Shown here: piece by piece, positions 1,536 through 26,642 of the stretch
Position numbering within the stretch: the first letter of the stretch is position 1
Layout: each line of letters begins with the position of its first letter
Made by a program: the position numbers and the translations under genes
The notes under the pieces: generated by a model
The model's database searches: none
What the model saw: the letters and a program-made list of their open reading frames with translations, nothing else
What the model was told of the DNA's origin: nothing
Assembly (NCBI GenBank): GCA_048887225.1
Contig: JBHLJY010000002.1
Location: forward strand, 64,001-128,000
Source: Candidatus Hodarchaeota archaeon
GTDB taxonomy: Archaea > Asgardarchaeota > Lokiarchaeia > Sigyniarchaeales > SOKP01
Length of the DNA: 64,000 bases
Direction: 5' to 3'

Positions 1536-2996
1536 ATGAGTTCTGTAAGCGAAATTTTAGAATCTGTATTAAAAGAGATTACCCCTACAAATCGAGAATT
1601 AACAGTAATTAATGAAATAGTAGAGAGATTAAAATTTTTATTAGAAAAAAAAGCAAAAGAATTAAAAATAGAATATACTAAAATTGAACCACAAGGTTCC
1701 ACGGGTATTAAACAAACTCAATTAAAAAACGATTTTGATATCGATTTATTTATTGGACTAAATTACGATTTATACAAACCAAAGTACGAGGGATTAAGTA
1801 AAAGTAAATTAAGGAAAGCATCGAAAAAAGACTTTTTAAATTTGTGTAATGAGTGGATCTTAAAAGCTTTAGATTTAAAAGAATTTAAAAATCCCCGCCT
1901 ATTGTATGCTGAACATCCTTACGTAACTGTAAATTACTTTATTCAAAATATTAAAATAGAAATTAATATTGTTCTTTATTTTGATTTGGACCTAGATTTT
2001 ATAAAAAAAAATGGTCCCATAACTGCTGTTGATAGATCACCATGGCACGGTAATTTTGTGAAAGATAACTTAACAAATGATCAAAAAAATGATGTTAGAC
2101 TATTAAAACAATTTTTTAAATCCTGTTATAGTTATGGTGATAAAAGTCCAGTAGGAAAAGTTGGATTCATTGGATACAGTGCAGAATTGTTAATTTATTA
2201 TTTTGGAACTATTCAAAAACTTTTTGAAAATTTTAATAAATTAAAAGAAAATCCTTTGGACTATTTCAATAGAAGCAAAAAAGAATTGGATAAGATAATT
2301 CATTTTCAAAACGATTATCTTATTATCATAGACCCTATTGATAAGAATAGGAATGTAGCATCGGCAATATCAGAAAAAGCATATAAGTATTGTAATCAAA
2401 GAGTAAAAACCTTCTTAAACAATCCCAATACTTACTTTTTTAAGATAAATCCAATACCGGAAGCGGATTTATCGAATTCTGAAGATCCTATCCTTTCAAA
2501 AACATATATTTTAGAATTTAACAGCGAAAACAATGGTGTTCATTATACTATTTATAGAGATAAATTATATTCTTTAGGGGATAGTATTAAAGTTAATGGA
2601 GAAAAAGAGTTTTCTCACGCTTCGCGGTTTGAAAACATTGCTTTTGAAGTATATTTTGAAGATGTTAAGAAAGAATATAATCTCGCATTATTTTGCAGTA
2701 AGCCAATAATTTCTAAAAGTTTTATTCGCAGGGGTCCACCAGTTAAAGAAAAATTTCACGCCGTTCAATTTAAAGAGAAAAATCCTAATTTTTTCGAAAA
2801 AAAAGGATATTTATGGGTGGAAACCGAAAGGAAATTTAACAATTTTTTTGAGTTTATAAAAGATTTTGTTCGTAAAAAAATTCCCGAATATCTAAATATT
2901 GTCAACATATCCATCTCGTTCGATGTCAAAACGACTTCTGGAAAAAGAGCGATTTATATCTTAAAAGAAATGGTTTTACCATTTTACAATATATAA
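1536..2996 (+). CDS. cca: Class I (archaeal) tRNA CCA-adding nucleotidyltransferase
   Basis: GS...DIDLF, YAEHPY, AVDRSPWH, VRLLKQF, GYSAELL, IIDPIDKNRNVASA motifs. Confidence 0.92.
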   Translation: MSSVSEILESVLKEITPTNRELTVINEIVERLKFLLEKKAKELKIEYTKIEPQGSTGIKQTQLKNDFDIDLFIGLNYDLYKPKYEGLSKSKLRKASKKDFLNLCNEWILKALDLKEFKNPRLLYAEHPYVTVNYFIQNIKIEINIVLYFDLDLDFIKKNGPITAVDRSPWHGNFVKDNLTNDQKNDVRLLKQFFKSCYSYGDKSPVGKVGFIGYSAELLIYYFGTIQKLFENFNKLKENPLDYFNRSKKELDKIIHFQNDYLIIIDPIDKNRNVASAISEKAYKYCNQRVKTFLNNPNTYFFKINPIPEADLSNSEDPILSKTYILEFNSENNGVHYTIYRDKLYSLGDSIKVNGEKEFSHASRFENIAFEVYFEDVKKEYNLALFCSKPIISKSFIRRGPPVKEKFHAVQFKEKNPNFFEKKGYLWVETERKFNNFFEFIKDFVRKKIPEYLNIVNISISFDVKTTSGKRAIYILKEMVLPFYNI

Positions 2997-22518: not shown

Positions 22519-24429
22519 CTATTCACCCTCTTTTTCAAAAAAGACCTCGTAAAATAGCTCTTTTTCCCCTGCTTCAGGAGGGGTAATTATTGTTCGACCA
22601 CCTTTTTTTATTATATGAACAGTTTCTTTATTTTGAATATGGATATTTCCGTAAAAACCCTTAATTCCCTTTTCTTTTGCAATTTTTATAAGGTGGTTAT
22701 AGATAAAGGAAGCAATACCTTTTCCTCTCCATTCCTCCTTCACAACAAAACTAAATTCTGCCATGTTATTTTGGGGATTTAAATAATAAGTAGCATTTCC
22801 TACCATTTCTTGATTACCAATATCTCCTACAAATGTACCAATCGAAAATATGTTATGATAATCAATATTAACTTCATATTGAGCTTTTGAATGTGTAAAT
22901 TCTTTTTTCACTTCAAAGAATCTTAAATAACGATCTCTCTCATCTAAGGAATAATATAAATCTTTTAATAGCGGTTCATCAGTAGTATTTACTGGTCTAA
23001 TAATAACTTTTTTATTATTTATCATAAAAGAGGTTTCATATTGTTTAGGATATAAACAAATATTTCCATGCTCATCACATGGTAAAATTTGGTCTGAATA
23101 AACATATTTTAATGCCTTTGCATCCTCTAATAATTGCTGTCTAAAATTTGGATGTGCTATACAAATTAATTCAATAACTCTGTCGCGAATTGTTTTACCA
23201 TGTAAATAGGCAACACCCCACTCGGTAACAACATAACGTACATCCCCACGAGATAACATCACTCCGGCGCCTTCATCTAAATGGGATACAATTCTAGATT
23301 TTTTACCATCTCTAGTTGTTGATGGCATTATAATAATAGGTTTGCCGCCCTTAGAAAATGCAGAACCTCTCATAAAATCAATTGTTTCTCCTAACCCCGA
23401 ATAAAAAGAATAACCTTCTGTTGAAGCATTTACTTGTCCAGTAAGATCTATTTGTCGTGCTGAATTAATTGAAACCAAATTTTTATTTTTTCCAATAACC
23501 CTTGGATTACACACGAAATCTGATGTTCGGAATTCAATGTAGGGATTATTATGTATAAAATTGTATAATTTTTTAGTTCCTAAGGCAAAGCTAGTAACTA
23601 TTTTACCCGGAAAATAGTTCTTTTTTCTACAAGTTAGAACACCATTTTCGATAAGTGGTATAACATTATCCGTAATATAATGGGAATGCATACCTAGATC
23701 TTTTTTATCCTTAAGATGTTTTAAAACTGCGTTTGGTAAATCTCCAAAACCCACATGGATGGTTGACTTATTTTGGACTAGTGTTGCTACATTTTGACCA
23801 ATTCTCTCAGCAATTTCATCTGGTTCATCAAAATGAAATTCTAATAAAGGAGCGTCATTAAAGACAAAATAATCAATTTCCTTCATATGAATAAAACTAT
23901 CTCCCAGAGTCCTCGGCATTTGAGGGTTAATTTCTGCGATAATTAAAGAAGCTGATTGTGTTATTGGTTTCGCTATGTCTATGTTTATTCCAAATGAACA
24001 GAATCCATAGGGATCTGGTGGAGTTATTTGAATAAGAGCAACATCAATATATTTTCGCCCAGAGAGAAATAATAAAGGAATTTCACTTGCATAAATGGGC
24101 GTATAATCTGCTTGTCCGCTATTTATTTCCTCTCGAAGAATTCTTCCAATAAAAAAAGCGTTATGTCGAAACAAATCTTCCTTTTTATCTTTCCCGAAGT
24201 ATTTCTCGGGACCAGCATCTAGAAAATGAAGAATTTCGGTATCAATTAAACTTTCTGATTGCTTTATTAATTCTGATGTTAATGCTTGCGGTTTACTACA
24301 GCCAGAATCAATGAATACACGGTTACCAGGAAATATTTTTTTAATTGCATCTTCAGCGGTAATTTCCTTATCTTTCCATTTTTCTCGCCATTCTTGATCG
24401 ATAATATTCACTTTCTCCATTCTAAACAC
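22519..24429 (-). CDS. Acetyl-CoA hydrolase/transferase fused to C-terminal GNAT acetyltransferase
   Basis: DVALIQITPPD.YGFCSFG, EINPQMPRT, SINSA.QIDLTGQ, DFMRG, VVTEWG; GNAT part YLRFF...AEFSFVV.EEWRGKGIA. Confidence 0.9.
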   Translation of the reverse strand: MFRMEKVNIIDQEWREKWKDKEITAEDAIKKIFPGNRVFIDSGCSKPQALTSELIKQSESLIDTEILHFLDAGPEKYFGKDKKEDLFRHNAFFIGRILREEINSGQADYTPIYASEIPLLFLSGRKYIDVALIQITPPDPYGFCSFGINIDIAKPITQSASLIIAEINPQMPRTLGDSFIHMKEIDYFVFNDAPLLEFHFDEPDEIAERIGQNVATLVQNKSTIHVGFGDLPNAVLKHLKDKKDLGMHSHYITDNVIPLIENGVLTCRKKNYFPGKIVTSFALGTKKLYNFIHNNPYIEFRTSDFVCNPRVIGKNKNLVSINSARQIDLTGQVNASTEGYSFYSGLGETIDFMRGSAFSKGGKPIIIMPSTTRDGKKSRIVSHLDEGAGVMLSRGDVRYVVTEWGVAYLHGKTIRDRVIELICIAHPNFRQQLLEDAKALKYVYSDQILPCDEHGNICLYPKQYETSFMINNKKVIIRPVNTTDEPLLKDLYYSLDERDRYLRFFEVKKEFTHSKAQYEVNIDYHNIFSIGTFVGDIGNQEMVGNATYYLNPQNNMAEFSFVVKEEWRGKGIASFIYNHLIKIAKEKGIKGFYGNIHIQNKETVHIIKKGGRTIITPPEAGEKELFYEVFFEKEGE

Positions 24430-24602: not shown

Positions 24603-26642
24603 ATGTCAAAGGAAGAAAAAATAGCAACTGTTCTTACTGAAGATCGGAAATTTGATCCTTTAGAATTGAATCCGGATTTTTCCAAGACAGGAATAACCTT
24701 TGAAGAATATAAAAAACTCTGGAAACGGAGTGTTGAAGATTTGGAGGGTTTTTGGGGAGAACAGGCACAATCATTAGATTGGTTTGAGCCTTATGAAAAA
24801 GTCTGGGAGAGAACAGAGAATGACTTATTCCCAGGCAGGTGGTTTATCGGAGGTAAATTGAATGCAAGTTATAACTGCATTGATAGACATATTAAAGCAG
24901 GAAAAGGGGATAAACTTGCTATAATATGGGAAGCAGATGAGCCTTGGCAGGGAAGGACGTTTACATTTAAAGAGCTTAAAAGTGAAGTGTGTAAAGTTGC
25001 TAATGGAATGAAAAAGCTTGGGTTGAAGAAAGGAGATCGAGTTACTATATGGCTTCCAATGGTGCCCGAATTAGCGATTATAATGCTCGCCTGCGCTCGA
25101 CTTGGCGTTATTCATTCTATTGTGTTCGGAGGGTTTTCGAAAGAAGCTGTAAAAGATAGAATAGGCGATTCTAACTCTAAACTTTTATTTACCAGCGATG
25201 AAACGGCCAGAGCTGGAAAAACCTATCCAAAAATGGCTGATGTTGCTCAGATTATTGATGATGTTCCAACCATAGAACACGTAATTGTAGTTAAGCGAAC
25301 TGGAAATGAGGTACCGCATACTGACAAGGACATTTGGTACCACGAGCTTATTGAAGGGATGAGCGAAGAGTGTGAGCCTGAGGTAATGGACTCTGAGGAT
25401 ACCTTGTTCATTCTCTATACAAGCGGCACGACGGGAAAGCCGAAAGGCGTTAAGCATACCACTGCGGGGTATCTTCTTTATACGTCTTTTTCACATAGAG
25501 TCGTGTTTAATTATCAAGAGAAAGATATCTGGTTTTGCACCGCTGATGTAGGCTGGATTACGGGGCATAGCTATATTGTTTATGGACCATTGGCTAATGG
25601 TGCCACGACAGTAATGTTTGAGGGTGTGCCCACTTATCCCGATGTTGATAGGTTCTGGGATATGGTTGAAACCTATAAGATTACTCACTTTTATACTGCT
25701 CCAACCGCAATACGATCATTAATGCGATATGGCGATAGACCTGTTCTTAGGCATGATCTGAGCTCATTAAAGGCATTAGGGACTGTGGGAGAACCGATTA
25801 GCTATGGGAGAACCTCATAGTTCGGGAATAATCCCGAAGCCTGGACTTGGTATCATAGAGTGGTTGGAAAAGAAAGATGCCCGATTATAGACACCTACTG
25901 GCAAAAAATACGAGCATTTAGCTAGTATTTGCTAACAGAAACGGGCGGATTTCTTTTAACCCCTATAGCAACCGCAACGCCTACAAAACCCGGATCCTGC
26001 TGCCTCCCATTCTTTGGGATTAATCCAGTAATTTTTGATATAGAAGGAGATGAAGTAACTGATCCGGAGGAGGGGGGATATCTCTCAATCGGACCTAATC
26101 CATGGCCTGGAATTCTCAGAGATGTATGGGGCGATACAGAGCGATTCAAAAGAACTTATTTGGAGAAATATAAAGGTTACTATTATACAGATGATGGTGC
26201 ACGACGAGATGAGGACGGCTATTACTGGATTCTTGGTAGATTAGATGATGTAATTAAAGTTTCGGGTCATAGAATCGGCACCATGGAAGTGGAATCCGCA
26301 ATAGTGAGCCATCCAAAAGTAGCTGAAGCTGCTGTTGCTCCATTTCCACATGATATTAAAGGACAGGCAATTTGGGCTTTTATTACATTAATGGAAGGGG
26401 TAAAAAAAACCGTTGAGCTAAAACGTGACATCAAAATGCATGTAAGAAAAGAAATCGGTCCCGTTTTCCAACCAGACGTGGTTCAATTTGCGGATTCCTT
26501 GCCTAAAACGAGGAGCGGTAAAATTATGCGTAGAATATTAAAAGCGATTGCTTCAGGTACAGATATTGGAGACGTTACTACGCTCGCTGACCCTTCTGTT
26601 GTAGACGCTTTATTAGAAGAAAGAAAGAAAATAGAGACATAA
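24603..26642 (+). CDS. acs: Acetyl-CoA synthetase (AMP-forming), interrupted by two 30-nt inserts; spliced join(24603..25798,25829..25905,25936..26642) = 659 aa
   Basis: [66 protein letters not shown]; the middle segment [25 protein letters not shown] is intact and in frame between the inserts. Confidence 0.93.
25799..25828 (+). other. Candidate BHB/BHL-type intron 1 in acs
   Basis: 30-nt insert with in-frame TAG; 9-bp inner stem AGCUAUGGG/CUCAUAGUU; central helix (A)CCG/CGG(G); bulges AU^U and AA^U. Confidence 0.7.
25906..25935 (+). other. Candidate BHB-type intron 2 in acs
   Basis: 30-nt insert with in-frame TAG; central helix GGCA/UGCU, bulges AA^A and AA^C, inner stem AAUAC/GUAUU, outer pairs CU/AG. 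Confidence 0.8.

What the first reader, a model, noticed from the sequence alone, without database searches (positions are those of the whole stretch)
25786..25945. Two candidate tRNA-type (bulge-helix-bulge) introns inside a metabolic gene, acs
Seen: acs looks split, but it is an intact reading frame carrying two unrelated 30-nt inserts. They sit inside the conserved motifs GEPI|NPEAW and WQ|TETGG and are separated by a 77-nt mini-exon (25829-25905). Insert 2 folds into a strict BHB: central helix GGCA(25900-03)/UGCU(25930-33), bulges AAA(25904-06) and AAC(25934-36), inner stem AAUAC/GUAUU, outer pairs CU/AG. Cutting after the second bulge nucleotide removes exactly 25906-25935 and restores CAA ACA (Q-T). 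Insert 1 folds in the same register as a relaxed motif: helix ACCG/CGGG with one A.G mismatch, bulges AUU and AAU, 9-bp inner stem, outer GGGA/UCCC. Its excision (25799-25828) restores ATT AAT (I-N). The spliced product is 659 aa, a normal Acs length. Established: archaeal splicing endonuclease EndA cuts BHB motifs this way, and the classic protein-coding example is the single intron of crenarchaeal cbf5. Inference: a multi-intron, EndA-spliced mRNA in an Asgard archaeon, which annotation pipelines would call a pseudogene.
Basis: partly seen in the sequence, partly recalled or inferred. Interest (0 to 1): 0.95.

Follow-up and report, generated by a model that had tools for sequence, protein, structure and literature searches.

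The report
Two tRNA-type mini-introns in acs
The only acetyl-CoA synthetase gene of this Asgard archaeon is broken by two 30-base inserts shaped like tRNA introns, and relatives carry the same well-conserved gene with none to six such inserts, so its message is almost certainly cut and rejoined by the tRNA-splicing enzymes, which the papers I could search document for only one archaeal protein gene (cbf5).

Summary
The acs gene (24603-26642, +) carries two 30-nt inserts, 25799-25828 and 25906-25935, each with an in-frame TAG. Removing them gives one 659-aa ORF with intact GEPINPEAW and WQTETGG motifs.

The interpretation (bulge-helix-bulge introns removed by EndA) is strongly supported by comparison, but not by RNA data.
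- Among 135 genomes of the same GTDB family, acs carries 28-60-nt inserts at eight sites, up to six per gene.
- Several lengths (32, 33 nt) are not multiples of three.
- Both window inserts recur at the same nucleotide: site D in 5 genomes, site E in 11, across three genera.
- All 29 inserts fit one register (4-nt helix strand, two nucleotides, cut), and their hairpins covary.
- Removing the inserts always restores an open frame. dN/dS is 0.02-0.09, the same as for insert-free genes.
- The genome has two EndA paralogues and RtcB.
- Its single uL11 gene (36 and 28 nt) and rtcB itself (29 nt) carry the same kind of insert, so the cell must splice them.

Pseudogene, artefact, readthrough and translational bypass are rejected. 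No RNA run holds this gene, so splicing itself is inferred.

This scan has already found the same class on other DNA, including other pieces of this genome. The papers I searched report only cbf5 and one Haloferax 5' UTR.

The parts
24603..25798 (+). acs exon 1 (ACAS_N plus AMP-binding positions 6-297 of 384)
   Evidence: ORF and translation. Pfam PF16177 and PF00501, with the AMP-binding match truncated at the exon end.
25786..25836 (+). BHB-like fold 1 (relaxed). Outer helix 25786-90/25832-36. 2x2 mismatch. Helix 25793-96/25823-26 (A.G plus 3 bp). Bulges 25797-99 and 25827-29. Inner 9-bp hairpin 25800-08/25814-22.
   Evidence: MFE and centroid fold. Covariation in 5 genomes: 95% of cells paired, 9 pairs with double changes, 0 of 500 shuffles as high.
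25799..25828 (+). intron 1 (site D), 30 nt, in-frame TAG at 25818-20, phase 2 (the intron splits the Ile codon AU|U after its second base). Equivalent cut positions are +1 and +2.
   Evidence: Absent from the 91%-identical orthologue of G009 and from most of the family. Present at the same nucleotide in G001, G058, G145 and G139.
25829..25905 (+). acs exon 2, a 77-nt mini-exon
   Evidence: Aligns without gaps to intron-less orthologues.
25898..25938 (+). BHB fold 2. Outer pairs 25898-99/25937-38. Helix 25900-03/25930-33. Bulges 25904-06 and 25934-36. Inner hairpin 25907-29.
   Evidence: Read directly. Centroid of the 50-nt fold. Covariation in 10 genomes: 89% of cells paired, 6 pairs with double changes, slid controls 29-50%.
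25906..25935 (+). intron 2 (site E), 30 nt, in-frame TAG at 25923-25, phase 1 (it splits the Thr codon A|CA). Equivalent cut positions are -1 and -2.
   Evidence: Present at the same nucleotide in 11 genomes of three genera and absent in most others.
25936..26642 (+). acs exon 3 (end of AMP-binding, AMP-binding_C, stop TAA 26640-42)
   Evidence: Translation. Pfam PF13193.

Best explanation
The two 30-nt inserts are archaeal bulge-helix-bulge (tRNA-type) introns in the acs pre-mRNA.

Proposed mechanism: after transcription, each insert pairs with its flanking exon bases. This forms a short central helix flanked by two 3-nt bulges, with a hairpin inside the intron. The host's two-paralogue splicing endonuclease EndA cuts after the second nucleotide of each bulge. 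RtcB joins the exons. The product is an mRNA for a normal 659-aa Acs, plus two 30-nt introns that are probably circularised.

Shown here: the inserts exist, they are conserved, their structure covaries, the cut register is exact, the exons are under purifying selection, and the enzymes are encoded.

Inferred: that EndA and RtcB are the acting enzymes, and that the RNA is spliced at all.

These introns belong to a larger, fast-turning-over set. In this family acs has at least eight intron sites and up to six introns per gene. Essential genes of this genome (uL11, rtcB) carry the same kind of intron.
For: 1. Excision restores a 659-aa ORF and two universally conserved Acs motifs. This is the only true acs in a 98%-complete genome; the next paralogue is 28% identical.
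2. Presence/absence at exactly the same nucleotides occurs among close relatives: G009 has 0 introns, G006 has 1, G000 has 2, G001 has 4.
3. In 135 family genomes I found 29 inserts at 8 sites in 15 genomes. Lengths are 30, 32, 33, 42 and 60 nt. The 32-nt inserts shift the frame, so no insert-tolerant protein can explain them.
4. All 29 inserts fit one register: a 4-nt helix strand, 2 nt, then the cut, on both sides, with 3-4 of 4 helix pairs.
5. Covariation: site D has 95% of cells paired and 9 pairs with double changes. Site E has 89% and 6. Site A has 89.5% and 8. Slid controls give 25-60%, and 0-1 of 500 shuffles reach the observed score. At site D two outer-helix pairs change on both sides in the exons.
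6. After insert removal, every intron-bearing gene or gene fragment is an open frame with no stops. dN/dS is 0.018-0.09 at dS 0.34-1.6, including pairs in which both genes bear introns. An intron-less pair gives 0.034. Terminal branches of intron-bearing genes are no longer than those of their intron-less sisters.
7. Machinery: two 201-aa EndA paralogues, each with PF02778 and PF01974. This is the (alpha-beta)2 pattern that the literature reports for Asgard, with a loop linked to broad substrate range (PMC5829648; bioRxiv 10.64898/2026.10.13.758758). RtcB is present.
8. The single uL11 gene has a 36-nt insert (AGGG AG^U ... CCCU AA^U) and a 28-nt insert (GGCU GU^A ... GGCU UA^A). The single rtcB has a 29-nt insert (UUGG AU^A ... 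CCAA AA^A, with an 8-bp inner stem). Excision restores GYDINCG in rtcB, and in uL11 it restores an open frame continuous with the part that matches the family profile.
9. DNA contigs from two other studies span insert 1 without gaps.
Against: - No RNA-level evidence exists for this gene or organism.
- Both motifs are relaxed rather than canonical in most species. Site D has an A.G at one end of the helix and a 2x2 mismatch before the outer helix. Site E has a mismatched fourth helix pair in 8 of 10 genomes.
- For insert 1 an alternative one-pair slip predicts a 28-nt excision that would break the frame.
- In a 186-nt context the MFE fold of insert 2 is not the BHB.
- I did not examine the EndA substrate-range loop.
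- How an archaeon would keep ribosomes off the unspliced message is unexplained.
Confidence: 0.87

Rival explanations
1. Decaying pseudogene: acs was inactivated by two insertions and is no longer used.
For: Each insert carries an in-frame stop. Annotation pipelines would call the gene broken.
Against: The same inserts sit at the same nucleotides in up to 11 genomes of three genera, with dS up to saturation between them, yet the exons have no stop or frameshift. dN/dS is 0.02-0.09. Insert helices covary. Essential single-copy uL11 and rtcB carry the same kind of insert.
Confidence: 0.02
2. The inserts stay in the mRNA and the ribosome deals with them, either by stop-codon readthrough (TAG read as an amino acid) or by programmed translational bypass over the hairpin, as in phage T4 gene 60.
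For: Both window inserts are multiples of three, both use TAG, and both contain a hairpin right after the break.
Against: Orthologous and neighbouring inserts use TAA or TGA, or shift the frame with lengths of 32 nt. Readthrough would put 10 foreign residues inside GEPI|NPEAW and WQ|TETGG. Bypass needs matching take-off and landing codons. At site D the codon before AAU CCC is AAU, not an Ile codon. Introns at sites A and E split a codon (phase 1), which hopping cannot mend (read).
Confidence: 0.03
3. The inserts are removed from the RNA, but not by EndA and RtcB. Another hairpin-recognising nuclease and ligase, or an unknown mechanism, does it.
For: Most of the motifs are relaxed, the enzyme assignment is inferred, and no cleavage assay exists.
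Against: The constant register of a 4-nt helix plus 2 nt on both sides at all 29 inserts is exactly the EndA ruler. The genome has the two-paralogue EndA type that the literature links to relaxed substrates (PMC5829648). ARAGORN calls an intron in 15 of the 32 tRNA genes it finds, which suggests an intron-rich tRNA set handled by the same machinery.
Confidence: 0.07
4. Assembly or sequencing artefact.
For: None beyond the genome being a metagenome-assembled genome.
Against: A contig of the probable source run covers both inserts with no differences. Contigs from two other studies span insert 1. Fourteen other genomes carry homologous inserts.
Confidence: 0.005

Closest known systems
BHB intron in the cbf5 (pseudouridine synthase) pre-mRNA of Crenarchaeota (Watanabe 2002; Yoshinari 2006; Yokobori 2009, PMC2738675)
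   Same: [quoted passage not shown] It is removed by the hetero-oligomeric tRNA splicing endonuclease, and it is present or absent among relatives.
   Different: cbf5 has one intron in one RNA-modification gene of Crenarchaeota. Here a metabolic gene of an Asgard archaeon has two introns (up to six in relatives) at eight sites, with a 77-nt mini-exon and very fast turnover. Other genes of the same genome are also affected. In 2020 PMC7714728 still called cbf5 the only coding-region case.
Multiple non-canonical tRNA introns of Asgard archaea (PMC11291895; bioRxiv 10.64898/2026.10.13.758758)
   Same: The same lineage and the same presumed enzymes. The motifs are relaxed, there are several introns per gene, and the pattern is one of repeated gain and loss.
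   Different: Those papers treat tRNA genes only and do not mention mRNA. Here the substrate is a translated message, so the cut register is also fixed by the reading frame.
BHB intron in the 5' UTR of HVO_1309 mRNA, Haloferax volcanii (PMC7714728)
   Same: An mRNA cut by the archaeal splicing endonuclease.
   Different: It lies in the untranslated leader and does not interrupt the coding sequence.
Unconventional HAC1/XBP1 mRNA splicing in eukaryotes (own knowledge)
   Same: Protein-only, spliceosome-independent excision of a short intron from an mRNA. In animals the ligation is by RtcB.
   Different: The cut is made by IRE1 at stem-loops, not by the tRNA endonuclease at a BHB. It affects a single regulated target.
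Translational bypass elements (phage T4 gene 60; mitochondrial byps; own knowledge)
   Same: Short hairpin-containing inserts with a stop codon inside an otherwise intact gene.
   Different: They need matching take-off and landing codons and remain in the mRNA. That requirement is not met here.

Membership tests
Archaeal BHB (EndA-spliced) intron | [quoted passage not shown] | tested here: met
   Insert 2 in this genome has 4/4 helix pairs, 3-nt bulges, a 5-bp inner stem and a 2-bp outer stem. Insert 1 has 3 bp plus an A.G, 3-nt bulges, a 9-bp inner stem, and an outer helix after a 2x2 mismatch, so it is a relaxed form. In relatives site E is also relaxed.
Archaeal BHB (EndA-spliced) intron | Symmetric cuts inside the bulges give a functional product | tested here: met
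   Cutting after the second bulge nucleotide on both sides removes exactly 30 nt and restores GEPINPEAW and WQTETGG. The same register holds for all 29 family inserts, and removing all inserts leaves every gene or fragment open.
Archaeal BHB (EndA-spliced) intron | The helices are maintained by compensatory change | tested here: met
   89-95% of cells paired, against 25-60% when the structure is slid. There are 6-9 pairs with double changes per site, and 0-1 of 500 shuffles reach the observed covariation score.
Archaeal BHB (EndA-spliced) intron | The host encodes a splicing endonuclease able to take relaxed motifs, and an RtcB ligase | tested here: met
   Two EndA paralogues with PF02778 and PF01974. 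One has the Tyr/His/Lys pattern and the other lacks the His (read; inference). RtcB PF01139 is present. The L1 loop was not examined.
Archaeal BHB (EndA-spliced) intron | The intron is absent from the mature RNA, and a circular or linear intron is released | not testable with these tools
   No RNA run holds the stretch.
Pseudogene | Relaxed constraint: stops or frameshifts outside the inserts, and dN/dS approaching 1 | tested here: not met
   There are no stops in the exons of any intron-bearing gene or fragment. dN/dS is 0.02-0.09.
Programmed translational bypass | Identical or synonymous take-off and landing codons flank the gap, and whole codons are skipped | tested here: not met
   There is no matching landing codon at site D. 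Sites A and E split a codon.
Group I / group II intron or intein | Ribozyme core of several hundred nt, or an in-frame protein-splicing domain | tested here: not met
   The inserts are 28-60 nt. There is no Rfam match at E <= 1 in 25600-26100.

The most novel reading that the evidence does not exclude
In this Asgard family, cutting and rejoining of messenger RNAs by the tRNA-splicing enzymes is a general layer of gene expression rather than a curiosity.

- Ordinary metabolic and essential genes have an exon-intron architecture, with up to six introns per gene and mini-exons under 80 nt.
- Introns are gained and lost on the time scale of species divergence.
- The ligase gene rtcB depends on its own product.
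- Splicing efficiency could therefore set protein levels, for example for Acs.
Probability: 0.55. Interest if true: 0.92.

Novelty: new variant of a known kind. Interest (0 to 1): 0.85.

Why it matters
- Published record: protein-coding genes of archaea are treated as uninterrupted. The papers I could search document endonuclease-mediated splicing of a coding region only for cbf5. Here a central metabolic gene in the closest prokaryotic relatives of eukaryotes needs two such splices, and up to six in sister species.
- Essential genes: uL11 and the RNA ligase gene of the same genome need such splices as well.
- Annotation: standard pipelines will call these genes pseudogenes or split ORFs, so metabolic reconstructions of Asgard MAGs will wrongly score pathways as missing.
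- Open questions: the finding makes it possible to ask how a cell without a nucleus keeps ribosomes off unspliced messages. It also makes it possible to ask how introns arrive at and leave protein genes. The acs family offers eight sites and dozens of presence/absence contrasts with which to study that.

Tried and rejected
- RNA evidence: no RNA holder is listed for the gene, so the reads laid were DNA contigs only.
- Exact spliced-junction search in JGI metagenome contigs: there was one hit. It is an unrelated, GC-richer acs that happens to share the 30-mer of the conserved motif, so it is uninformative.
- Genome-wide census by BHB geometry plus ORF merging: three versions all failed to rise clearly above controls in which the structure was evaluated at shifted coordinates. 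One example is 124 loci against 79-111 in controls. Same-strand gene junctions swamp the signal. The scan did recover the rtcB intron. The first version missed both acs introns, because the 77-nt mini-exon fails the flanking-ORF length filter; I did not check them in the later versions, whose flanking-ORF limits also exclude at least insert 2.
- Structure-free census by aligning the window to syntenic DNA of G001, G006 and G009: only about 27 kb aligned. The only inserts in the window were the two acs introns.
- Intron copies elsewhere in the genome: none beyond chance 10-14-mers, so this is not a repeat family.
- Rfam: no match.
- tRNA genes in the window: none.
- Thermodynamic folding of insert 2 in its 186-nt context does not give the BHB as the MFE. 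Its support comes from the cut register and from covariation.
- 'Intron birth by local duplication' for insert 1 (the 10-mer 25805-25814 equals 25786-25795): the repeat is real but is found only in this genome. The site-D intron is shared with four other genomes whose hairpins differ, so it does not date the intron's origin.

Full report
**1. What is in the window**

One reading frame runs from ATG 24603 to TAA 26640-42 on the + strand. It is interrupted only by two TAG codons, at 25818 and 25923.

Deleting 25799-25828 and 25906-25935 (30 nt each) yields a 659-aa ORF without stops. It reads ...[38 protein letters not shown]....

Pfam places ACAS_N and AMP-binding positions 6-297 of 384 in exon 1, and AMP-binding_C in exon 3. 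The inserts therefore sit inside the adenylation domain.

This is the only true acs of a 98%-complete, 3.27-Mb, 30% G+C genome. The next paralogue is 28% identical.

**2. The folds**

- Insert 1: the predicted MFE and centroid contain the helix CCG/CGG, the 8-9-bp inner hairpin and the outer GGGA/UCCC helix. The z-score is -2.5 to -3.5.
The 50-nt centroid shows GGCA/UGCU plus the inner stem. In a 186-nt context, however, the MFE prefers another fold.
- Chance: such geometry at a fixed place and length occurs with probability 7e-5 to 3e-4 in this genome.

**3. Relatives**

I searched 41 and then 135 genomes of the same GTDB family. Of the 135, 104 have acs.

Aligning the genes shows that insert 1 (site D) and insert 2 (site E) are absent from most genomes, including G009, whose Acs is 91% identical. 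Where they occur, they occur at exactly the same nucleotide:
- site D in G000, G001, G058, G145 and G139;
- site E in those five plus G006, G004, G084, G117, G127 and G143.

These genomes belong to three genera.

Six more sites exist: A (32 nt), B (60 or 42 nt), B' (33 nt), C (30 nt), F (30 nt) and G (32 nt). G001 has four inserts, G058 five, G145 six and G139 four. The 32-nt inserts shift the frame, so no insert-tolerant protein or readthrough can account for them.

**4. One cut rule fits all**

For all 29 inserts, the six nucleotides before the 5' cut and the six before the 3' cut are a 4-nt helix strand followed by two bulge nucleotides. Three or four of the four helix pairs form. This is the ruler of the archaeal splicing endonuclease as described in PMC5829648 and in the 2026 preprint on Asgard tRNA introns.

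**5. Covariation**

| Site | Genomes | Cells paired | Pairs with changes on both sides | Slid controls (cells paired) |
|---|---|---|---|---|
| D | 5 | 95% | 9 of 17 (includes the helix pair G-C to A-U and two outer-helix pairs in the exons) | 25-60% |
| E | 10 | 89% | 6 of 16 | 29-50% |
| A | 4 | 89.5% | 8 of 19 | 26-37% |

At site D, 0 of 500 shuffles reach the observed score.

The weak spot is helix pair 14-41 of site E. It is A-U only in G000 and G139.

**6. Not a pseudogene**

After insert removal, every gene or gene fragment is open.

dN/dS is 0.018-0.09 at dS 0.34-1.6. This includes pairs in which both genes carry introns:
- G000 against G006: 0.043;
- G058 against G084: 0.052.

An intron-less pair gives 0.034.

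In the protein tree, intron-bearing genes are sisters of intron-less ones in five separate places. Their branches are no longer than those of their sisters.

**7. Turnover**

On that tree, the 11, 5 and 4 presences at sites E, D and A need 10, 5 and 4 changes respectively. The presences are nested: every gene with A also has D and E, and every gene with D also has E.

Hairpins at one site are recognisably homologous between genera; G058, G139 and G145 at site D are an example.

I read this as an old, intron-rich gene that repeatedly lost introns. Repeated site-specific gain is not excluded. This reading is inference.

**8. Machinery and other targets**

- EndA: the genome encodes two 201-aa EndA paralogues with both Pfam domains. 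One has the Tyr/His/Lys pattern of a catalytic subunit and the other lacks the His. That reading is mine and is inference. The literature reports the (alpha-beta)2 type, with the loop tied to broad specificity, for Asgard (PMC5829648).
- RtcB: it is present, but its gene is itself split. Profile positions 1-47 and 47-426 lie in different frames. A 29-nt insert at G000:C13:33458-33486 forms UUGG AU^A, an 8-bp stem, then CCAA AA^A. Its removal restores GVGYDINCG.
- uL11: the single gene matches its family profile only from position 21. Upstream it carries a 36-nt insert and a 28-nt insert, each with a 4/4 helix.
- tRNA genes: ARAGORN finds only 32, and it calls an intron in 15 of them. This fits the intron-rich, partly undetectable tRNA sets described for Asgard (PMC11291895).

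A cell cannot lack uL11, so these inserts must be removed.

**9. DNA support and host**

A contig of the probable source run covers both inserts exactly. Contigs from two other studies span insert 1. Contigs of intron-less relatives diverge exactly at 25829 and 25905.

The closest named acs relatives are MAGs labelled Promethearchaeota archaeon, and one is labelled Hermodarchaeota. Promethearchaeota belongs to the kingdom Promethearchaeati, the Asgard group (own knowledge).

**10. Literature**

Full-text searches and readings found BHB splicing of a coding region only for cbf5, plus a Haloferax 5' UTR intron. PMC7714728 states this explicitly for 2020. The Asgard intron papers deal with tRNA genes only.

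**11. Earlier notes of this scan**

The class has been noted before. It was noted on other pieces of this genome (thiolase, iolM, acetoacetyl-CoA synthetase, uL11, CspA, a sugar kinase). It was also noted in other Asgard, DPANN and ammonia-oxidising archaea, in some cases with RNA contigs reported to lack the intron.

I used these notes as leads. I re-derived uL11 myself and found rtcB independently. The others I did not check.

**12. Verdict**

Confidence that these are spliced BHB introns is about 0.87. The missing piece is RNA or enzymatic evidence for this gene.

The mechanism is a known kind. Several features make this a new variant:
- it lies in an Asgard metabolic gene;
- there are multiple introns per gene;
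- one exon is a 77-nt mini-exon;
- the family shows eight sites with rapid turnover.

Noticed in passing
G000:C13:33458-33486 (L167:1473-1501, +): The only rtcB (RNA ligase) gene is itself interrupted by a 29-nt strict BHB insert: UUGG AU^A, an 8-bp stem, then CCAA AA^A. Excision restores GVGYDINCG. The ligase message would therefore need its own product to be spliced.
   Followed up: partly
G000:C4:65628-65663 and 65567-65594 (L063:1680-1715 and 1619-1646, minus strand): The single ribosomal protein uL11 gene carries a 36-nt and a 28-nt BHB insert, each with a 4/4 central helix, in its N-terminal domain. The 28-nt insert shifts the frame.
   Followed up: partly
L017, L068, L070, L072, L073 (acs of G001, G058, G145, G139, G140): acs of relatives has up to six BHB-type inserts at eight sites, all between residues 312 and 505. 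Presences are nested (A within D within E) but scattered over the gene tree. This suggests repeated, perhaps multi-intron, loss.
   Followed up: yes
window 25786-25795 and 25805-25814: A 10-nt exact direct repeat (TGGGAGAACC) links exon 1 and intron 1. It is absent from the site-D introns of the four other genomes.
   Followed up: partly
window 22519-24429 (-): Head-to-head with acs lies a 636-aa fusion of acetyl-CoA hydrolase/transferase domains with a C-terminal GNAT acetyltransferase (Pfam). It could be an Acs-acetylating regulator.
   Followed up: no
whole genome G000: ARAGORN finds only 32 tRNA genes in a 98%-complete genome and calls an intron in 15 of them. Many tRNA genes are probably too interrupted to be detected.
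   Followed up: no
G001:C10, opposite window 7086 and 19292: Relative to the window, G001 has extra 39-nt and 23-nt inserts in syntenic genes. I saw no obvious BHB by eye in the 39-nt insert and did not look at the 23-nt one.
   Followed up: no
window 25868-25885 with 25943-25957: In the 186-nt fold, a long-range helix between the mini-exon and exon 3 (AAAGAAAG..GCCCGA with ACGGGC..UUUCUUUU) encloses intron 2 and could bring its splice sites together. I did not test its conservation.
   Followed up: no
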